A stretch of 62,135 bases of DNA, filler included, from Bipalium vagum (taxonomy: Eukaryota): assembly GCA_037834085.1 (NCBI GenBank). It is 3 parts of 3 records of this genome, joined end to end, with 100 filler letters (N's around TTAATTAATTAA, not from the genome) between each part and the next. Parts side by side here need not be neighbours in the genome. Positions count along the whole stretch, not along the records: positions 20,507 to 38,996 come from JBBMKC010027410.1; 2 more parts are not named here. The stretch is one strand, 5' to 3'. The first letter of the stretch is position 1, and each line of letters starts with the position of its first letter. A program made the position numbers and the translations under genes. Under the pieces are notes generated by a model. It had not been told where the DNA came from. It was given only the letters and a program-made list of their open reading frames with translations, and ran no database searches. Below are positions 300 through 35,328 of the stretch, piece after piece.

Positions 300-1012
300 A
301 TCTTTGTTTAAAATGTTTCAATTCATGTAGACAGTTAAATCTTATAAATGAACATATAAAGTTGTGTCAAGAACACAAATAATCAAAAGCTACTTTACAT
401 GATAAAGAATATTGCGAGTATAACAATTTTCATTTTATGAATAAAATACCATTTGTATTATATGGTGATTTCGAAACCTTTAATTTAATAAAATCTGATA
501 ATGAGTTGGAGTTGCAAAGCAATGAAATACATCAAAAACCATTATCATTAGGTGTTTATTTAAAAAGTAATTATGAACATTTAATTTTAATCATGATATC
601 ACAATATCATGAATTTTATGGACAAAATATAATTAATAATTTTTTAGAATTTTTACAAAATATTAATATTAAATTAGCTGATATAATAAAAAATACAAAC
701 ATTCCAATTATTATGACAGAACAAGATGAAATAAACTGAATAAATCAAAAAGATGTTATTATTGTAATAAAAATATTGAATCAAAATCAGAAAAGATTAA
801 AGATCATGATCGCTTAAATGAAAATTATAGAGGAGCAGCTCACAATACCTGTAATCACAAATGATAAATCTTTAAGAAATTTCTTTATTCCATTTTATTT
901 TCATAATGGTTCAAAATATGATAATCACTTATTCTTTGTAGATTTATTAACAAAAATCCTAATGAAAATATTAAATTACTTCATCATACAGATGAAGAAT
1001 ATATAAGTTTTA
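300..1012 (+). mobile_element. Decayed Maverick/Polinton-type protein-primed DNA polymerase B fragment (N-terminal/exonuclease region with endonuclease VII-like insert)
   Basis: Across frameshifts: CLKCFN..HIKLC, PFVLYGDFET (ExoI), CYYC..DHDRLNENYRGAAHNTCN, PFYFHNGSKYDNHL (ExoII). Stops and frameshifts are present. Confidence 0.8.
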
Positions 1013-1950
1013 ATTATTTTTTAATGTAATGGCTTTGTAATATGTTCTTAATATGAATCTTTTACCATAGAGATAGTGTTTGAAATGATTGCAGAAATAG
1101 TAAATTGATAAGAGCTCCTTTCGGGTAATGCAATATCCTCTTTCGTGGACGGACATTGTATGGGATCCATATGCAATAACTCTTTCCTTACCTTTATTGT
1201 CTTTCTGGGCCAGCACTGCTCCAATCGTATCAAAGCTGGCATACGTATCTAGACTAAATTCTCTTCGTATGTCTGGGTAACTTAGCACCAGTGGATTTGT
1301 AAGGGCTGTTTTCATCTCTGAGAAGGCTGTACTGCACGCTTCTGTCCAGATTAGTTTCTCTTTGTACCGTCCACAAAGTTCCTCTAATGCTCTAGCCTTG
1401 TTTACATAACCATTGATGAAACGCCGATAATATTAGTTGCAAAGGCTTAGAAAACTTCGGAGAGTTTTTAAACACTTTGGGTGTTCAAATTTCTTTATAG
1501 CATCGACTTTCGTAGGGTCGGCTTTCACACCGTCATTGCTTATAATATGCCCCAAAAATGTTATTTCTTTCTGTTTAAATGAGCATTTGTCTGGGTTTAT
1601 TCGTATTCCTGCTGATTTGATTCTCATCAGCACTTCATTTAAGCGTTCGTAATGTTCTTCTAGGCCTTCAGAGTGTATTAGAATGTCATATGGAATGTCT
1701 CACAGGATTTTGGTCATCAATTCTTGGAATGTACCTGGTGCGATTGATACAGAACTGTCATGTTTTCGCCGAGAATGCTGTCTTCTCCTTCGAATCTTCA
1801 TCCAATTCTACCTGCTGGTAAGCCTGTTCGAGGTCGATAGAGCTAAAATAAACGGCTTCATTAAGTCTTTCCAACATGTCATCTACATTCGGCATAGGGA
1901 ATGCCTGTCTTTCCGTTACCAGGTTTAGTCTTCGAAAATCTAGACAAATG
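1010..1950 (-). mobile_element. Ty3/Gypsy pol fragment (RT and RNase H), degenerate
   Basis: ICLDFRRLN, YFSSIDLEQAYQQV, KTAF, INPDKC..FLGHIIS, LRSFL, DTYASFDTIGAVLAQ, YCITRKELLSI, YLYGKRF; the YxDD region is disrupted. Confidence 0.92.
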
Positions 1951-2029
1951 TCCTTTATATAAAAAATAAAAATAAAAATAATAAAAATAACAATAAATAA
2001 TAAAAAATAATAATAATAAATAAAAAACA

Positions 2030-3288
2030 AAATAAATACGCTTTCAAAATGTATTTCAAAACAATGTATCTGCCGACAACCGTATTATTTAAACAACAAA
2101 TTATTTTTTAATATTATTAATAATCCTCACTAGGAAAATTAAAAAATACAGTAAAACCGGAAAAATAGACGATAAACGTCGAGCTGAACGTCCAAAAAAC
2201 GTCCTCAAGAGACGCCGTCATTTTACGAAGGTGCTTCTTGGCAGATAGAAGTCTGAATTCTACAGATTCAACCAAGTTATGGTCTGAATCAACAGGAGTG
2301 ACAGTGTGCACTTCAACTGTAAGGAAAAGGCTTCAAAGTTTTTGAATTCGTTGCTGTCGTCCTAGAAAAAATCCATTATTAACAGAAATGCAACGAATGT
2401 GGACTTCAGAAGGATGAAATGGTGTTTTGTTTAGTGACGAATCTACATTTATTATCAATAATCACAGCTGAAATGCGTTCGTTCGTCGTTTTCCTAACGA
2501 AGAATCTTCACAGAAGTGTATTTTACCAACGATTAAGCATCCAGGTTCAATAATGAGATGGAGTTGCTTGTCATCTACTGGCCTTGAAAGATTGCATATC
2601 TTGTCAGGGGCAATAACTGGATCAAACCATATTAAGGTATTGACCTCAAATATGCTACCAAGTAGGGAAGACCTTTTTAAAGACAAAAATTTTATTTTTC
2701 AAGACGAAAATGCTCCATGCCACAGGGCAAAAGTAGTTTAAAATTGTTTAGAAGACAATGGTATTCAAAGAATGGACTGACCCGCGCAGTCACCCGATCT
2801 TAATTCAATCGAAAATCTGTGGCAAAGTGTTGCCAATATTATTTCTAAAAGTAAACCAAAGAATAAAAAATATTTAAGTGAAGCATTATGTAATGTCTGG
2901 TATCATTGCAACGTAGAACTTGAATTGAAGAAATTAGTAGATTCAATACCGAAACTATGTAAATTAGTAATAAAAGAACAAAGGCTGGCCTATTATATAT
3001 TAAAAGAAAGATGTTATTTTTCTATATTATTGTAAAAAGCTTTTGTAATAACAAAATTTGAATTTGTGTTGTATTTTATAAACAAAGCATATATCATTGT
3101 AGATAATGTGTTTTTATTATTTTAGCAACCTTTTAGCCGGCACAAATTATTTATTTCTTTTAATATAATATCTGAAGTGTGGCCTTGTCAAGTTTGCTAC
3201 AAATTTCATACAATATTGTGCCAAAAATTGTTCTAATGTTAAAAATTGTATTTTTCTTGTGGTGATGCAGAACTTTTTACCAACACTG
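2030..3288 (+). mobile_element. Tc1-like transposon, degenerate
   Basis: VLFSDES, TIKHPG, FIFQDENAPCHRAK, PAQSPDLNSIENLW; right TIR ...ACCAACACTG followed by TA. Confidence 0.9.
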
Positions 3289-7363: not shown

Positions 7364-7364
7364 A

Positions 7365-7420
<56 letters not shown>
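7364..7420 (+). repeat. (AAT)n microsatellite
   Basis: About 18 perfect AAT units. Confidence 0.95.
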
Positions 7421-7422
<2 letters not shown>

Positions 7423-7424
7423 TA

Positions 7425-8136
7425 AAAAGTACAAACTTAATTAAAACAAAAAAAGCAATCTATTATTTTCCGAAAGGAAACTAATCTTGACAATGGCGAA
7501 GCTAAATTAGCAAGATTAGATCAAGGCCAGCAAGGAAGGACCGGTTTAGAATTAAAGAGTTACCATTAATCAAGCTGGTCTACGACTGATTAGTCGAGTT
7601 GAAATCCGCAGTGGATTACTACAAATTCTTCGAAGGAAATCACAAAACTATCTAAGAGAGCTACTTCAGAAGAAGTTCAAATGTTACTTGGTATATCAAT
7701 CTTTATGTCCTCTATGCGACAGGAGCTTACGACGGGTCCTGTGCTGTTAGGGAGTTTCTGAGTGAATTGGATTGGGCTCAGCAAACCACCCTTTAAACCT
7801 GTCGTCGACAGATTGGTGAGAGGATTATTTTTCTTTGTTTTTAAATTTTCTGTTTTAAATTAATCTTTAATTAAGTCATTTAATTAACATTGTGATTTAA
7901 GAGTATTTAATTATTTATTAATTTTTATTTTATTTTTTTTTGATTTTGTAGAGTTATTTGATTGTGTAACGGCTGACATTTAATTAGAAGTTCAATTTGA
8001 TCACTCGAGACATTGTGTTTGTTATTGTTATTTTGATAATAAAGTGTAGTTTGTAGTTCTTTTGATTCATTCATTTGCGACACGTTTTGACAAAAGTGAA
8101 GGAGTCAATAAACTTTATGAGCTAAGTGTTACGACA
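7425..8136 (+). mobile_element. Dispersed repeat, copy 1 (LTR-like, structured); homologous to 28370-29075
   Basis: Shares blocks CTAATCTTGACAATGGCGAAGCTAA, TGGTCTACGACTGAT, ATGCGACAGGAGCTTA..GGTCCTGTGCTGTTAGGG and CAAACCACCCTTT with copy 2. Ends AATAAA...TGTTACGACA. Confidence 0.75.
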
Positions 8137-8395: not shown

Positions 8396-9153
8396 CTATT
8401 TAAACAATGGCATGATCAATAAGATTATGATAGTGGCTGAACCGGCCACCGTAGCAAATATCCAGAACAAACATCGATCAAGGATATATGCCATAACCTT
8501 CCATTCTATCATCATTTCTTGGTCTTGCTCATCCTCCTGTTGCTTTTCAATCAGATGATGCAAATGTTGAATGATCTCAGAATACTGATTGATTGTATTT
8601 TGGCTTAATATATTACGATCATTGATAACAGTATCACTTAGTCCATTTAAGAAATCAAGTTTGTTGCCGTTTTTCTTTATTGGTGGTGTACTGCTACACG
8701 AAAAGGTATTGGAGTAATCATTACTTTTGTTTTCCAATACCAGGTGATCAGCACTATTATCTGAGTTAGAATTTACACAGTCAAACATTGTTATTTTTGA
8801 TACATTGTAATCGGTTTTTTCACACAATATATGAGGATTTGAAGTCGAAGCTGAGTTTTCTTTGCCTATATAATTAGGAATCTTTTCTTCGGTTAAAAAT
8901 TCTTTAGACAGGAACTTATCTGTATATGACATGGAAAACTGAGCCCCGTTGATGGTTTCATTATTTCTTTTTCGAAGCTTATATCGACGAACTGTAGTCA
9001 TACCAAGCAGGGGAGCTAATTTATCAAAAAATATATGTCTTAATTGAGGTGGTATCGATTTATGATTAGGACCAATATGGTGGATATGTAACACCAGCAC
9101 TGTCAATACTATTGACAAAGATGTTGTTGCCATGATGACAGTCAAATAGATAC
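8396..9153 (-). CDS. nAChR alpha last exon (M3, cytoplasmic loop, M4)
   Basis: [26 protein letters not shown]...[17 protein letters not shown]; ends at a TAG stop. Confidence 0.97.
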
Positions 9154-12100
9154 CTTAATAAAGGTTTTTCATATTAGAAAAGACGTTCAACACAAAGTTC
9201 TAGTTACCTATTAGAGGAACAAATTCACTTGTTGCTGGCATTTTCTCTGCAATAAGGAGCATGAAAACGGAAAATGCCAATAATACTGTTATTCCCAAAG
9301 TTATTTTTTCACCTGAATCAGGTGGTAGCCAAAAACTGAGAAGACTGAGAACGGTTAACCATAAACACGGAAGTATGATGTTGAATAAATAATATAATGT
9401 GCGTCTTCTCATGGAAATTGTAAACGTAATATCAGGGTAAGTTTCATTGCAACAAGGGTAGACAACCTAGACAGGAACAAGTAATTAAAAATCGAAAATA
9501 TTAAAAAATAAATTATACAAAAATAATAGTTTATTCAATTTGCTAATCAAGATTTAATTAGATTGGAGTTTTAAAAGTTAATAATATTAATTATTAATAT
9601 ATTAAAATATTTTTTGTTAGGTAACAATTGTTAGGATAACAAATGTTTTCGTTTGTAAATTTTTTTAAAAAATTAAAAAGAAATTTAAAAATCTTTTTAT
9701 TAATTATGATAAATAACACTTTCTGCCTTCGATATATATTATAAATAATACCGTTTAATGAGTCTGGAAAAATTCTTAACTAATTAATATAAATTTACAA
9801 CTGAAAATTGTCATACGGAAATTATTTTTTTTCAATTTGATATAAAATAAAAATTTTAATAATATAAATAATAAAATTGCAAAATTTGGTGTAAATGTAT
9901 AAATAAATTATAGATATAAATGGATAATTATTAAAAAATATAATATAATAAAATAATAAAATGTAATATAAAATATTATATAAATTAAATAACATAATAA
10001 TAATAATAATAATAATATTTAACATAATAAATATTATATATTATAATAAATATTTAAAAATGGATAATAAATTGAACAAATCAATAATATATAAATAATA
10101 TAATATATTTAATATGAAAAAAAAATTATAAATGTATTAGGTGAATCAGAAAGTAACCTCGTTTTTCTAATTTTTAAAATTAATTTCTAAATATTGACAA
10201 TTTTATTGTTGTTTTAATAATATTGATATAAAAATATTTGAAGCGCAATATTTAAAGTATAATAAATCATATTTATTTTTTAGATTATAATTTTTATAAT
10301 TCAGTGGCTACATTTGTCCCGACTAAGCAAAATGTACGAAATTGGCTCCTGTACGAATATCTCCGTGGATCTACCGCCACACTAGCTCCCTCTAATAATA
10401 ATGACATGAATAAAGGAGCTATTAATATTCGCCAAGCACAAGAATGGTTTGCAAGATTCAGTTTTGGTGACTTCAACCTCAATGACCATAAAAGAAGTGG
10501 ACGTCTACCAACGACTGACGACGTATTATTGGAAGAACTCATAAGAAGCGACCAACGATTAACGACTGAACAAATGTCAAAACCCTCGGCTGTAGTCCTA
10601 CTACAGTTTAGACTAACTTACATATGATTGGAAAGTCATATAAGGCAGGTGTCTGGGTATCCCATGAATTGACCGAAAAAAATAAATCTGTTAGACTATC
10701 TGTTTGTCAACACTGATTCTGAAGAACAACAGTGATCCATTTCTTTAACGAATTGACTGAATTCAGTACCACAATCCCAAAAGACAAAAGCAATGGTTAT
10801 TTCCAGGTGAAACCACGATGCCAACACCAAAACTAGGACTTCATCCTAAAAAAGCTATGCTTTGCATTTGGTGGGATTGTCATGGGGTAACCTATTGGGA
10901 ATTTCTCGAATCAAATCAGACAATTGATGGCAACAAATACTGTGATCAATTGGAAAAATTAAATGAGAACTCGGTTGAAATTCGTCCAGTTTTAGTCATC
11001 AGAAAAGGTCATTTTTCATCAGGACACCTCGAAGATCACATCTAAAAAATTAAAGACTTAGGATGAGAAGTTATGGCTCACCCACCATATAACCCAGACA
11101 TTGCTCCAACAGATTTTCATCTCTTCAGATCTTTGCAGCACTTCTTTTCTGGAAAAAGATTTCAAAAAGGAGATCCAATCATTTATTGCCTCTAAATCTT
11201 TCTCGTTCTTTGAAAAATGGATGAAATGCTTGGTTGACAAGTGGCAGGCTATAGTAAAAATAATGGCGATTTTATGATTGATTTATGATAAATTTAAATT
11301 TAAAAATTTGTAAAATGAAATTTTGTGATATTACACAATAAATATTAGTAATTTAGATATTAGTAATAAAAATCAGGGAACTTTATGACTTACCTAATAT
11401 AAATATCTTTTATTAATTGTAAAATAGTAAGATTTTAATACTAACGGAACATAATTATAACATGTGTATCATAATCATTATAAAGTAATTTTTATAAGTG
11501 GTGTAAAAAAGATAATTTATTTTCTCGATTTATTTAAAATTTAACAATAATTCACAATCCAAAAATCCAATTGTTTTAATTATTTTAAGTTTTAATTATC
11601 TAAAACTAAACTGGAGTTAATCAAACAAATTCCAAATATTATTTCAAATATGAGTTATGTAGAATCGATTTCTATCACTCATGAAAGAGATTTGTTTCAA
11701 GAAATATTTAATATTTTCAGTTCAATAGAGAAAAACGGTTATCTAATTTGTTAAAATAATAACATATTTTTATAATTAAATTTAATTGGTTGATAATTAT
11801 TATTTCATATTTTTCGCAAATATTTGAAAATCTGTTTAGAATTAATGATTTAAGTTGTAAAATTTGTGTTGAGTTCGTGTGGTATATTTTTAAAGTTTGG
11901 TATTTTTTCTACATAATTAAAATAAATAAATTAAAATAAAATCAAGTGAGAGAAAAAAATGGTTGCCAAAATAATGTTACTTAATTAATCAATAAAATAT
12001 TAAAATATAAAAATTATAATTATTTAATATATTAAAATAAAATTACTAAATCTAAAGAATTAAATTAAATTTATCACAATTATGATATTATTTTTATTTT

Positions 12101-27119: not shown

Positions 27120-27932
27120 ATGTTGTTTTGTCTGAGCCTCGTTCTCTTTTCGCTTGTGATTTTGGTGCGATCTGACTTGAGGGTTGCTACAAAATGTGCG
27201 CTGAATTCCTTAACCAGTCGTAGTAAATATTTCGTGGTGAAGAATAGTTCATGCTACATCCCAAAGGCCAATTCCTCAACTCTGGGTAAACCAATGCAAC
27301 AGAAATACTTCAACCGACTCTCCGACAGGGTGACCCTCTTCAGAGTTCTTTCCGGAAGTGGAGTTATCCCTCGTTCGTATTTTCTCAACCCGGGTAACAA
27401 TAAGGAAACCTTAGCAGATTTGGGGAATGGACAAAATTTTCGAAGCATTTTCTTGGATGAATGGAACGATATTCGACCGAAGCTAATGAATCTGACTGTG
27501 AAAGACTACGATGATACTGTCGTCGTGAATCTACTGTTCAAGGTCACTGAAACAGATAATATAGAGTCCTGGTTTGCTAAGGAAAACGTGGTTGCCTCTT
27601 TCCCTTGGGATACGGACTACCTGCGACGTGTTGATTACAGTTATTTCAGTATAAAGGGTTTAGACATCAGGTATGGTATACACGCTAAAGAGTTTTTTCT
27701 TGCATTATCTCTGAAAGGATGTTCGAGAGATGAAGGAATGTTATTAGTGATATCAGGTAAAGATCACTGCACATATGGACAGAGTTGGCCGAATAACACG
27801 GCTTACCGTTACCCGCAGATTCTTTACATAAACGAAAACGGCAAAGGAGGCAAATGGAGAAGTTCTAGAAGGGCTGCTAAATCATTGGAAATCATAGGGG
27901 TTTACAACTCCGACATTGCAACATACCATTAA
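27120..27932 (+). CDS. Uncharacterised secreted protein, 270 aa, intronless
   Basis: Longest ORF in the window. ATG at 27120 is followed by the hydrophobic signal peptide MLFCLSLVLFSLVILVRS. Four N-glycosylation sequons and elevated GC. A paralogous 3' fragment at 35250-35328 differs at several synonymous sites. Confidence 0.85.
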   Translation: MLFCLSLVLFSLVILVRSDLRVATKCALNSLTSRSKYFVVKNSSCYIPKANSSTLGKPMQQKYFNRLSDRVTLFRVLSGSGVIPRSYFLNPGNNKETLADLGNGQNFRSIFLDEWNDIRPKLMNLTVKDYDDTVVVNLLFKVTETDNIESWFAKENVVASFPWDTDYLRRVDYSYFSIKGLDIRYGIHAKEFFLALSLKGCSRDEGMLLVISGKDHCTYGQSWPNNTAYRYPQILYINENGKGGKWRSSRRAAKSLEIIGVYNSDIATYH

Positions 27933-28369: not shown

Positions 28370-29075
28370 AAACATGTTTGCAAAAGAATGAATCAAAGCA
28401 AAGTAACAGCGACGATGTCTCCAATAATAGAATCGAATTGTCAATAAAATGTCTACAGTCACACAGTCAGATGTTTTAATGACTCTACAAAATCAAAATT
28501 AAGAATAATAAAAATCAATAAGTAATCAAATAATATCAATGAAATCAAAATCAATTTTAAACAACAAAATATAAAATAAAAGAAAAGTATGAATCTCTCA
28601 TCGATCTGTCAACGATAGGTTCAAAGGGTGGTTTGCGGAGCCCAATCCTGCTCGTTCAGAAATCCCCTAACAGCACAGGACCCCAAATAAGCTCCTGTCG
28701 CATATTTGGGGACATAAAACAACGAATTACTAATTGAAATTTTTTGACAACAGTTTCGGATTTTCTGACAGATAACTCTTTCGACACAAATTTTCCTTGA
28801 TCAAATAAAAAATATTAAGTCGAGATCTCTTTTGTGATAATCCATTGCGCATTCTAACTCCTTAAATACTATTCTGGTCATACCAATTATCAGTCGTAGA
28901 CCATTTTGATTAATGGGAAATGCCAATTCCCTTTTTAGATTTTATTACTAAAACGTTCCCTCCTTGCGGACCCTGATCTAATCTTATCAAGTTAGCTTCG
29001 CCATTGTCAAGATTAGATCCTTTTAAGAAAATAATAAATTGCTTTTTTAAAAATTAAATTTGCACTTTTTAATTA
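28370..29075 (-). mobile_element. Dispersed repeat, copy 2 (homologous to 7425-8136)
   Basis: The reverse complement contains the same conserved blocks in the same order. Confidence 0.75.
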
Positions 29076-29151
29076 ATTATGATTATTGTATTATCATTAT
29101 TATTGTTATTATTATCATAATTAGTATTATTTATAATTATCATTTATTTAT

Positions 29152-29508
29152 TGTAAAAAATTATATCGAACATAACCAGTGAGAAATATTTTTTTCCATG
29201 CGAGACATTGGTATTGTTCTTTCCAAAAGCGGTGCGAAGAAATAAAGAACGAGAAATGTGTCTAGAGACAAAGTCTGAACAACTCCCGGCGCAAACAAAA
29301 AGGGGGAGACGCAAAAGCCCCTTCATTATCGAAACAATAACATTGTTTCCTTTGTCGAAAACCTCACAGGGAAAGCGGTTCTTGCGAGACTTCTTTCCTG
29401 TCTTTCACTTGTTCCTTCCGTCGTGAAATGTTCAATGTCTGTACAGAGCGACACTTTCATTTCAGAGTTGGTACTAAGTGAAAGTATTAATAAAAGTGTA
29501 ACTTTACA
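29152..29508 (+). mobile_element. Putative LTR
   Basis: TGTAAA...TTTACA termini with AATAAA about 15 nt before the end; no target duplication seen. Confidence 0.4.
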
Positions 29509-30501
29509 AAGGTCACTGAAGAAACATTCAAGGAGTCATGAATAAAGAAATATCAAGAAGAAATGGAGAAGTATAATTAACTCTCGTCAGCCATCCGGAT
29601 ACAAAAGTTGGGAACCAAGATAGCACGGACCATAAGTGAAGATAGATTAAGACTAATTAAAGACTAAAAAGTCTAAGAGATCAAGCGTTTGACTGCTGAC
29701 CTCCGTACATCCCTGAAATTCATGACCTTCGGAATCGATCCAGTAAAAATATCAGAAAAGATCTTGAGTTACGGAGGGAAATCTTTGTTGATGATTCATT
29801 CAATAATGACGAGGAAAGGAAAATCGTGAGTCATTATGCAATGAAGGACACGTACAGAAACATGATGTTGTAGCTTAGACGATCATCTGCCGTATATCGC
29901 CGGAGTACCATCCCCCTCTGACACTGAACCATTGATTATGTAACAGAAAAAGCCCACAGCGCCATAGCCAGCCGTTCCCGACAAATGTACCAAGTTATCA
30001 CTGACAATAACTCATCAAAATTAGTCCCTTCATTGGGTTGAGAAAGGTCGGCACATCCCTAACCCTAGGCGTTAGTGACTTCTGCAATAATGAATGAATG
30101 GGCACATAAAAAGGGAAGTCTATACCTTCCTAGGGTATTTTTATAAGTCTTTTTTTTCTGTTAGGGACGTCCTGTTAAAATGTGTGCCAAGAGAAACTGG
30201 AACTTCTGAGGAGATAGGTACAGAATTCAGGCAAAGGTGTTTCCACTGAGAATCGGAAAATTCCAACAGAAAGCTCATTGAAAGATCCAGCAAACCGGCA
30301 ACACTCACACGCAGCAAGACTGTTTTGTTTGGTAATGTTTGTGACGCACACCAGGCTGTTGATTTCATTTTCTTCGGATGACGCCTGTGCCTGCGTGCAC
30401 CTTCACCATAGCACCTTCAGAGTGGCATCTGCAGCGTAGCAGGCTCACTTATCACCGACCAACCAACCATCGTACACGTGCTCTACTCTGCTTTCACAGC
30501 C

Positions 30502-30753
30502 ATGGCAACGTTTGAGAAAATAGACACTCTTGAGGCCCAAATCCGTCACAAGGAGACCGTGGTCTACAACCTCCCGCTGGACCATCCCGAAAGAAGGGCA
30601 AAGCTGGAGGAAATCAGAGAGCTGGATAAGATTATCGTTCGCATGAAAAAGTTCGAGAACGAAGCTGCAAGACAACATGGATCCACCGGCCTGCCTTACC
30701 CTGAGGTGTACGAAGTTAGCGTGAAGCAGAGTTCCATTTGTGGACTTCTGTAA
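30502..30753 (+). CDS. Small (83 aa) charged helical protein ending in a CaaX motif (CGLL)
   Basis: gccATGG Kozak context directly after a ctttcacag acceptor. GC-rich, codon-biased island in an AT-rich genome. AATAAA near 30900. C-terminus SSICGLL*. Confidence 0.7.
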   Translation: MATFEKIDTLEAQIRHKETVVYNLPLDHPERRAKLEEIRELDKIIVRMKKFENEAARQHGSTGLPYPEVYEVSVKQSSICGLL

Positions 30754-31461
30754 GTCTCTCGGGACCAGCGGCGTCTGTGTACGGACTTATGAACACTTTT
30801 CTCATCAATGAAGTATCCCTCCAGTCAGAACTGCCATCTCTTACCTCTTGGTGACCTCTCGGCTCATCTCATTTTGTGTCCTCGGAATTTGTTCTATCAA
30901 ATAAATGTTTTCCTACGTCTTGTTGGCACTTTTGTTGAACCGTGTGATACTTAGAGAGGGTCTTGTGCTTGTTAAACGCGTGCGTATTGATTATTTGCAG
31001 CATTCTGGCTGGCCTTCACCTTGTTGAGCTTGTGTGATCATGCCCGACTGAGCATTGAAGCAGCTCACTGAACCTACGTTGAAGGATCGTCGTTGTTACC
31101 ATCTCGTTCTGAATGGCGTCAAGGCTGTGTTCCGTGCAAAATGTTGATCAGACTAAAGACTCCTTGTCCTCATTACTATCATCATAGATTTATCAGTCCC
31201 AGACTCGACCAAAAGACCCCTCTTAAGCAGGTTTCGTTTGATCACCTCCAAGCCCTGTTTTATTTTTAAAATATAATTTATTTCACTGAATTTTTTCACT
31301 GAAAAATATCACATTTCTCTGTTGGGGTTTTCAATTTCAAAATTTGTTTTAATCGCTCTAAGTTTTAGTTTGATTTGCTACTCACAGTTTGAAAGTAGAA
31401 GTGCAGTAAAATATTTTATATTATTTATTAAATATTATTTATATTTTGAAGTTTTTTATTA

Positions 31462-31495
<34 letters not shown>

Positions 31496-31655
31496 CATTA
31501 TTAATTGATATTGTTAAATGTCAATTTTGTTTTAATCAGGTGAAATATTAAATATGACAACGTATCGATTGACAATAATGTCGTAATTAGTTACCGAGGC
31601 ACCCTTTTAGACATTTACAAAATAGTGAAGAGCGGCACGAGTGTGCGTCTTCCAA

Positions 31656-31785
31656 ATGGAAAGTGTGTGCCCTGACAGTGTCAGCACTGCAAAGGTACTC
31701 TTGACCAGTCCGGAAGAAGGATTATCCGCCACTTCGGAGGAGGATGATGATGATGATGATAACGGTCTTACAGGAGTGAGAAGAG
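31656..31785 (+). CDS. Possible first coding exon of an unknown gene (acidic tract)
   Basis: MESVCPDSVSTAKVLLTSPEEGLSATSEEDDDDDDNGLTGVRR, then an AG|gtattt donor; downstream exons unclear. Confidence 0.3.
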
Positions 31786-31866
31786 GTATTTGCGTTTGTC
31801 AATAAATAAAAATGAATCCATGTAATTTATTGATCCATCGTGTTTTTGCTGTCGCACGTTTAAATA

Positions 31867-32092
31867 TTGGGTTGGCAACTGAGTTCGTGCACTTTTTAAT
31901 ATAAAATTTTTCAAACTAATAGATTAAAAATATCTTATTTCAATTGTTGTTATTGTTGAATTTATGGGAAAGATGGCAGAAGGTCATTCTTAATAATGGT
32001 GAACATTTCATTGATTAAAACTGTTTTTATCAATAAAAATTTATGGTTTTCATTTCTTCTTAAAAAGAGCACGAACTTAGTTGCCAACCCAA
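31867..32092 (+). mobile_element. mariner-derived MITE
   Basis: Near-perfect TIRs TTGGGTTGGCAACTGAGTTCGTGC / GCACGAACTTAGTTGCCAACCCAA, TA target duplication, C-terminal ERWQKVILNNGEHFID remnant. Confidence 0.9.
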
Positions 32093-32228
32093 TATTTCTT
32101 TTACCGCTTGCCTCGTCCTAAATTTATATTTAACCTTTTTATCAGACACTGAACCCTGACAGGAGGTTTAAAACACTGAATTGACCTGGAAAAGTACAAA
32201 AATGCTTTTGAAAAAGGATAAAGAAGTG

Positions 32229-34890: not shown

Positions 34891-35249
34891 GAAAAATAAT
34901 GGGCAAAAATTATTTCACCTTTTTCCTCTTACAATGGAAAAGAATCCTTCATTTTATATTTATTTATAAATAATTTAATATTATGTCTGTCAGGGGTTTT
35001 CAGAAGAATTAATGATTTTATAAATTATTATTATCATTATTGTATATTATTATTATTATTATCATTATTATTATTATTACTATTTTATTATTTTTATTAC
35101 TATTATTATTATTATGTCCTTATGTCCAATATTATAATAATTATTAACAAAAATGTATAACAAAGACTGCATTTATTGAGTAAAACGGAGAACACCAAAA
35201 ACTTAATTAAGAAAGTTAAAGGTTCCATAAATAAAAGGGAGTAACAGTG

Positions 35250-35328
35250 TTAGTCGTAAGCTGACATGGTGGGGTCGTAAACCCCGATGATTTCCAACGA
35301 TTTTGCAGCCTTTTTTGAACTTCTCCAT
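35250..35328 (-). pseudogene. 3'-terminal fragment of a paralogue of the 27120-27932 secreted protein
   Basis: WRSSKKAAKSLEIIGVYDPTMSAYD* versus WRSSRRAAKSLEIIGVYNSDIATYH*; same stop position; the upstream sequence is unrelated. Confidence 0.85.

What the first reader, a model, noticed from the sequence alone, without database searches (positions are those of the whole stretch)
30440..31037. Orphan 83-aa CaaX protein whose stop codon is also a splice donor: possible prenyl versus tail-anchor switch
Seen: a GC-rich, codon-biased ORF (30502-30753) ends ...ICGLL-TAA. The last codon and stop read CT|GTAAGT, a perfect 5' splice site at 30750. An AATAAA lies near 30900, and a good acceptor (ttattgattatttgcag) ends at 31000. 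Splicing 30750-31000 stays in frame and gives ...SSICGLLILAGLHLVELV* (stop at 31035-31037). Established: CaaL motifs direct geranylgeranylation by GGTase-I, and a C-terminal hydrophobic run can act as a tail anchor. Inference: intronic polyadenylation versus splicing may toggle one small helical protein between two membrane anchors. I recognise no family for it; it is G-gamma-sized but lacks the G-gamma DPL/NPF motifs. The spliced tail is only marginally hydrophobic, since it contains His and Glu.
Basis: partly seen in the sequence, partly recalled or inferred. Interest (0 to 1): 0.7.

Follow-up and report, generated by a model that had tools for sequence, protein, structure and literature searches.

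The report
Tiny lipid-anchored hairpin protein family
A small animal gene encodes an 83-residue protein of an undescribed family whose three full-length members found here all end in a lipid-attachment signal, so it is likely a membrane-tethered adaptor; the proposed splice switch to a second kind of membrane anchor is untested and probably incidental.

Summary
The sequence features are there. The ORF is a real gene: two unnamed homologues (45-46% identical, full length) and a partial fourth copy were found. All three full proteins end S-x-I-C-x-L-L with their only Cys at -4, while the linker before it is unconserved. CGLL works as a GGTase-I signal in published yeast screens. AlphaFold gives an antiparallel helical hairpin plus a flexible tail. 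No Pfam, PHROG, NCBIfam, PDB or viral family matches; it is not a G-gamma.

The switch is weak. The donor is valid but not perfect (TCT|GTAAGT, 7 of 11). The 31000 acceptor is the weakest of five candidates, and such sites follow 93 of 120 donor-like words in this window. The tail is short and holds His and Glu. A more host-like acceptor at 31539 rebuilds CT|G-TGA, giving the identical CaaX end. Splicing could not be tested.

Verdict: a new small family of likely geranylgeranylated adaptors, in a GC-rich block that may be an insertion. Prenyl-to-tail-anchor switch about 7%.

The parts
29180..31260 (.). GC-rich block (44% GC, sharp edges, window mean 29%) holding the gene; possibly an inserted element (inferred)
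   Evidence: no TIR, TSD or transposase found
30142..30147 (+). TATA-like word, candidate promoter (inferred)
   Evidence: seen in sequence
30332..30499 (+). candidate 5'-UTR intron: donor TTG|GTAATG (6 of 11), CTCAC branch-like word at 30444, acceptor with 12 of 15 pyrimidines ending 2 nt before the ATG; could also be a trans-splice acceptor
   Evidence: use untested
30502..30753 (+). 83-aa coding sequence; predicted antiparallel helical hairpin (residues 2-23, 29-58) plus flexible tail
30688..30708 (+). conserved G-x-P-Y-P-[ED]-[VI] motif (residues 63-69)
   Evidence: resembles the YPX[L/I] ALIX-binding motif; Val here departs from it
30739..30750 (+). CaaX end CGLL; the only Cys of the protein
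   Evidence: yeast GGTase-I data in PMC11304957
30750..30755 (+). GTAAGT donor-like word overlapping the last codon and TAA
   Evidence: use untested
30900..30905 (+). AATAAA 147 nt after the stop, followed by a T/G-rich stretch (64% over 30915-30950); likely main poly(A) signal
   Evidence: nearest but weakest candidate
31522..31543 (+). AT-rich, host-like acceptor (AG at 31539) followed by G-TGA; splicing here rebuilds Leu-stop and the identical CGLL end
31801..31810 (+). two overlapping AATAAA closing the 31540-31810 block; candidate distal poly(A) signal

Best explanation
The gene encodes an 83-residue member of a small undescribed family with a predicted two-helix hairpin and a conserved C-x-L-L end, and it likely works as a geranylgeranylated adaptor on the cytosolic face of a membrane, in one protein form. 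Shown: an intact, codon-biased ORF; full-length homologues; conservation of the core, the G-x-P-Y-P motif and the CaaL end. From established knowledge: CGLL is a GGTase-I substrate. Inferred: the mRNA ends at the 30900 signal; the lipid tethers the protein through a flexible linker; the hairpin and the tyrosine motif bind a partner (my preferred guess is an ALIX/ESCRT-type trafficking factor, about 15%); with no polybasic patch or second Cys the protein would favour endomembranes or need its partner for stable binding. The donor in the stop codon is probably a by-product of Leu(CTG)+TAA, or serves a 3'-UTR intron to 31539 that leaves the protein unchanged.
For: phmmer over 1.84 billion representatives: 13 hits at E<=0.001, of which 1 (P0001, E 4e-15) is a same-size full-length homologue; the other 12 are 685-1392-aa proteins matching short repeated stretches. 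Profile search added P0014 (E 1.6e-29). Identities 37/83 and 38/83; 28 of the first 67 columns invariant, 0 of columns 68-80, 5 of the last 7; one Cys per protein, always at -4. A contig of run X1 matches 30604-30659 with 9 differences in 56 nt; its 30-nt flanks, read by eye in the ORF's frame, are stop-free with 4 of 10 and 5 of 10 residues identical. AlphaFold2 pLDDT 84, tail 74-83 disordered. CGLL is among the 117 plasmids recovered in the FTase-free yeast Rho1 screen, and CGLL/CQLL score 4.5/3.6 at 42 C where >2 counts as enriched (PMC11304957). Poly(A) signal beats 488 of 500 shuffles. Of 67 downstream AGs only 31539 gives the identical end, and it is among the 5 acceptor-like ones.
Against: The family has only three full sequences, two from unnamed contigs whose organisms and DNA I could not see. 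A full GTAAGT at such an end is expected in only 1.6-2.9% of cases, which counts modestly for a real donor. The 31539 coincidence is itself reached by 54 of 596 acceptor-like sites (9%). The nearest acceptor is 31000, and nearest sites are often preferred (recalled). Prenylation is inferred from yeast reporters, not shown for this protein. The partner is a guess: this copy reads YPEV, not YPX[L/I].
Confidence: 0.7

Rival explanations
1. One reading: polyadenylation at 30900 gives the prenylated form and splicing 30750-31000 gives a tail-anchored form of the same protein.
For: Donor has the full intron-side consensus (1.6-2.9% by chance); 31000 is the nearest acceptor-like site; best 17-residue Kyte-Doolittle window 2.13, reached by 23 of 596 acceptor-like sites in the window (3.9%) and 5 of 63 downstream AGs. 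Splice-made targeting tails and CaaX on/off isoforms are known.
Against: Acceptor is the weakest of 5; 93 of 120 donor-like words have one this good within 300 nt. A 19-residue window drops to KD 1.68 and +5.1 kcal/mol on a position-free Hessa sum (scale recalled), with His and Glu in the run. The T-rich acceptor and the tail are one continuous hydrophobic-coding stretch in the unspliced frame, so one compositional feature explains both. Intron GC 44% against 22% and 27% in two host nAChR introns; 3 of 3 host donors seen have exon-side AG. Both homologues are recorded with the CaaX end.
Confidence: 0.07
2. The donor is used to 31000, 31187 or 31387 and simply removes the CaaX, giving a non-prenylated (soluble or unstable) minor form: an on/off switch like OAS1 p46/p42.
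For: All three acceptors extend the frame past CGLL (94, 109, 89 aa). Precedent in OAS1 (PMC7612834 passages).
Against: Same chance-level acceptors; nothing conserved is known for any of the tails.
Confidence: 0.1
3. The ORF is silent cargo of an old mobile element or virus fragment; the family is real but this copy is not expressed and its splice-like words are noise.
For: GC-rich block with sharp edges, holding the highest-GC 500-nt window of the whole sequence (0.51); ORF GC3 0.59 against 0.33-0.45 in host exons; protein-like broken frames beside it; patchy family.
Against: The ORF, its start context and the poly(A) signal are intact while neighbouring frames are broken; no terminal repeats, target-site duplication, transposase or viral relative found.
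Confidence: 0.13

Closest known systems
CaaL substrates of GGTase-I (Cxa[L/F/I/M/V]; PMC11304957)
   Same: C-terminal Cys at -4, Leu at a2 and X, unstructured linker before it; CGLL itself recovered in the yeast Rho1 screen.
   Different: The protein body matches no known prenylated family; no polybasic patch or second Cys (1-3 K/R in the 11 residues before the Cys).
G-protein gamma subunits (features recalled)
   Same: Size, helical N-terminal part, CaaL end.
   Different: No G-gamma Pfam hit for any of the 3 proteins; no DPL or NPF motif; model is a closed hairpin.
OAS1 p46/p42 (PMC7612834, passages) and Cdc42 terminal-exon isoforms (10.1101/366369, search listing)
   Same: RNA processing decides whether or which lipid signal ends the protein.
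   Different: Those isoforms are documented; none swaps a CaaX for a tail anchor; here no isoform is shown.
Cryptic targeting tails by alternative splicing in fungi (Freitag 2012, as cited in PMC9549241 passages)
   Same: A splice near the stop codon could append a short targeting peptide.
   Different: There the hidden tail is conserved and functional (PTS1); here the conserved signal is the unspliced end.
Generic helical hairpins: Get1 cytosolic domain, CHMP4B hairpin, ING4 dimerisation domain; HR1 (recalled)
   Same: Antiparallel two-helix arrangement (best VIA Z 8.9, rmsd 2.5 A, 63 residues, Get1).
   Different: 10% identity, 1392 chains reach Z>=5, no Foldseek match at E<=0.001; no homology implied.
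YPX[L/I] ALIX-binding late domains (PMC10532540, passages)
   Same: P0001 has YPEI and P0014 YPDI at a conserved position.
   Different: This copy has YPEV; binding untested.

Membership tests
GGTase-I CaaL substrate | Cys fourth from the C-terminus, hydrophobic a2, X = L/F/I/M/V | tested here: met
   CGLL, CQLL, CGLL; rule from PMC11304957 abstract
GGTase-I CaaL substrate | motif accessible on a flexible tail | tested here: met
   residues 74-83 pLDDT < 50, predicted
GGTase-I CaaL substrate | geranylgeranyl attached in vivo | not testable with these tools
   only yeast reporter data for the tetrapeptide
G-protein gamma subunit | match to the G-gamma/GGL Pfam model | tested here: not met
   no hit at E<=1 for 3 of 3 proteins
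G-protein gamma subunit | DPL and NPF motifs (recalled) | tested here: not met
   absent in alignment
G-protein gamma subunit | fold match | tested here: inconclusive
   not among listed rows
Tail-anchored protein (94-aa spliced form) | about 17-22 apolar residues near the C-terminus with favourable insertion (recalled) | tested here: inconclusive
   KD 2.13 over 17 but 1.68 over 19; Hessa sums +1.9 and +5.1; His and Glu inside
Tail-anchored protein (94-aa spliced form) | the isoform is made | not testable with these tools
   needs RNA reads
Stop-in-donor isoform switch | stop codon inside a donor consensus | tested here: met
   CT|GTAAGT
Stop-in-donor isoform switch | donor and downstream exon conserved in relatives | not testable with these tools
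ALIX-binding YPX[L/I] motif | Y-P-X-L/I core | tested here: inconclusive
   2 of 3 proteins fit; this one has Val
Transposable element or endogenous virus | terminal repeats with target-site duplication | tested here: inconclusive
   only a 10-nt inverted match and AT-only duplications; old elements lose them
Transposable element or endogenous virus | transposase, RT, integrase or viral gene | tested here: not met
   six frames and 13 sub-frames read through stops, no Pfam hit; no PDB hit under E 0.25

The most novel reading that the evidence does not exclude
A new family of lipid-anchored micro-adaptors, possibly carried by mobile elements and possibly recruiting ALIX/ESCRT through the conserved YPx[IV] motif, in which this gene uses a splice donor hidden in its stop codon to swap a geranylgeranyl anchor for a peptide tail anchor on the same 80-residue body.
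Probability: 0.06. Interest if true: 0.7.

Novelty: new member of a known kind. Interest (0 to 1): 0.33.

Why it matters
As it stands: a previously unannotated microprotein family with a strictly kept prenylation signal, small enough to test directly, and of the size that gene finders miss. If the switch were real it would be a minimal natural system for comparing a lipid anchor with a peptide anchor on one protein body; I saw no such case in the listings of my searches. CaaX on/off isoforms and splice-made targeting tails are already known, so the mechanism class is not new.

Tried and rejected
No whole genome is held. Run search: 1 run listed (X1, kind not on record, contigs); no RNA holder listed, which says nothing on expression. 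Laying X1 on 29150-31410 gave 5 records with short partial matches and no spanning piece, no joints; the hole proves nothing on copy number or splicing. No relatives by tblastn in viral contigs (4 scans), JGI metagenomes (2 scans: 25, 49), GTDB genomes, phages (81) or plasmids. Third homologue search: 2 of 23 candidates, no new member; longer or shorter forms were not searched with the word-index tool, but one search covered all lengths. ESM Atlas best scores 0.78 and 0.80, leads only. Pfam only DUF4078 below cut-off for P0001; PHROGs E>=0.016; NCBIfam none; PDB sequences none with A2, E>=0.55 with A1; Foldseek best E 1.3 (PDB) and 0.3 (viral). The 12 long phmmer hits were set aside: they match only short repeated stretches, and the two I read (P0002, P0003) are long repeat proteins. 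No paralogue in the window. No Rfam match; no unusual RNA fold round the donor and signal (z +1.43). The bacterial promoter scan (68) is irrelevant here. PMC9478949 (abstract) is not a precedent for this switch. Paper searches returned 0 papers; 32, 57, 64, 65 and 73 (listings only) showed no description of this family. bioRxiv supplements and subscription papers were not visible.

Full report
Setting. The window is from an AT-rich animal genome (29% GC) with an intron-split nicotinic receptor gene and retroelement and mariner debris. Earlier scan notes call the host a flatworm or planarian; I did not check that. No whole genome is held.

Observation. The ORF has GC 0.58/0.33/0.59 by codon position, an asymmetry reached by 1 of 5000 shuffles. 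The donor reads TCT|GTAAGTCT: full intron-side consensus, no exon-side match, 7 of 11 overall. The three host donors visible in the receptor gene show the opposite pattern, AG|GTAA. A donor of the TCT|GTAAGT type is still a workable class (recalled). The AATAAA lies 147 nt after the stop with a T/G-rich stretch behind it; 12 of 500 shuffles give one that close.

The gene is real. phmmer over 1.84 billion representatives gave 13 hits; one, P0001 (87 aa, ENA, unnamed), is a full-length homologue at E 4e-15. A two-sequence profile added P0014 (87 aa, Logan, unnamed). A third search added nothing (2 of 23 candidates). Identities to the ORF are 37/83 and 38/83. Invariant columns: 28 of the first 67, 0 of the next 13, 5 of the last 7 (S, I, C, L, L). 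Each protein has one Cys, at -4. Conservation that skips the linker and returns at the last residues is what selection on a prenylation signal predicts. A 1007-nt contig of run X1 matches 56 nt of the ORF with 9 differences; its displayed flanks, read by eye in frame, are stop-free and keep 4 of 10 and 5 of 10 residues. It may be a paralogue in the same animal; X1 may be the source of this assembly and is not independent.

Structure and family. AlphaFold2 on the three sequences gives helices 2-23 and 29-58 as a hairpin (mean pLDDT 84) and a disordered tail. Fold searches return only generic hairpins. No Pfam, PHROG, NCBIfam or PDB sequence family fits, and no relative was found in viral, prokaryotic, phage or plasmid collections. 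G-gamma membership fails on profile and motifs.

Prenylation. In PMC11304957 (abstract, section 16 part 1, section 20, supplementary Files S1 and S2 seen) yeast GGTase-I best modifies Cxa[L/F/I/M/V]. CGLL is listed among the Rho1 variants recovered in a strain without FTase (Fig. S4b), and Ydj1-CGLL and -CQLL score 4.5 and 3.6 at 42 C, above the paper's enrichment line of 2. That is tetrapeptide evidence in yeast, not proof for this protein.

The switch. For: a gene ending Leu+stop gets GTAAGT in only 1.6-2.9% of cases, the 31000 site is the nearest acceptor-like one, and its tail is as hydrophobic as only 23 of 596 acceptor-like sites would give. Against: five acceptor-like sites lie between 30800 and 32228 and 31000 is the weakest; 93 of 120 donor-like words in the window have such a site within 300 nt. 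The hydrophobic run holds over 17 residues (KD 2.13) but not 19 (1.68), contains His and Glu, and sums to +1.9 and +5.1 kcal/mol on the recalled Hessa scale. The acceptor's T-run and the tail are one hydrophobic-coding stretch in the unspliced frame, so they are not independent signs. The intron would be 44% GC; two host introns are 22% and 27%. Finally the AT-rich acceptor at 31539 is followed by G-TGA, so splicing there rebuilds Leu-stop and the same CGLL end. It is the only one of 67 downstream AGs to do so, and the block behind it ends in two AATAAA. That coincidence has a 9% background (54 of 596), so it is a rival, not a proof. Whether any splice occurs is untested.

Origin. The gene sits in a 2.1-kb block of 44% GC with sharp edges, holding the most GC-rich 500-nt window of the sequence. 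That suggests an insertion, but no terminal repeats, target-site duplication or element gene was found. Mobile cargo versus host orphan is about even.

Mechanism committed to. A TATA-like word (30142), a probable 5'-UTR intron ending 2 nt before the ATG and the 30900 signal would give a short mRNA. GGTase-I would add geranylgeranyl to Cys80, and the hairpin, held on a flexible tether at the cytosolic face of a membrane, would bind a partner. The conserved G-x-P-Y-P-[ED]-[VI] recalls the YPX[L/I] motif bound by ALIX (PMC10532540 passages); two homologues fit it and this copy has Val, so this is a lead only. Shown: ORF, family, conserved CaaL. Predicted: fold. Inferred: transcript, lipidation, partner.

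Known relatives of the idea. CaaX on/off by splicing is documented for OAS1 (PMC7612834 passages); splice-made targeting tails for fungal enzymes (PMC9549241 passages; Freitag 2012 itself not read). Other scan notes report stop-in-donor layouts in several genomes (unchecked), so the layout is common among flagged findings. I saw no prenyl-to-tail-anchor swap and no description of this family in the listings.

Verdict. New small family of likely geranylgeranylated hairpin proteins (confidence 0.7 for one protein form); switch as proposed 0.07. Interest 0.33.

Noticed in passing
window 27120-27932 (+): Intact 270-aa single-exon ORF with a hydrophobic N-terminus and no Pfam family; an inverted partial copy lies at 35248-35328 (80% identity).
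   Followed up: partly
No Pfam hit read through.
   Followed up: partly
window 29700-30044 (+) and 31544-31802 (+): Protein-like broken frames flanking the gene, the second with an acidic (GAT)n run; no Pfam or PDB match.
   Followed up: partly
window 31862-32097: 236-nt element with 46-nt inverted ends (89%), likely a mariner-type MITE (label recalled).
   Followed up: no
window 8396-19800 (-): Nicotinic-receptor-type gene with exons near 19710, 17335, 9460 and 8396-9154, including a very short last intron; used as host splice-site reference.
   Followed up: partly
window near 24.1 kb (+): A lone tyrosine-kinase exon (Pfam PF07714); my motif scan found no other kinase exons in the window.
   Followed up: partly
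window 7364-8037 and 28392-29132: Inverted copies of a 700-nt repeat at 69% identity; the second ends right at the left edge of the GC-rich block.
   Followed up: no
window 383-739 (+), 1010-2084 (-): A fragment resembling protein-primed DNA polymerase B (motif recalled; no Pfam hit) next to retroelement RT/RNase H fragments.
   Followed up: no
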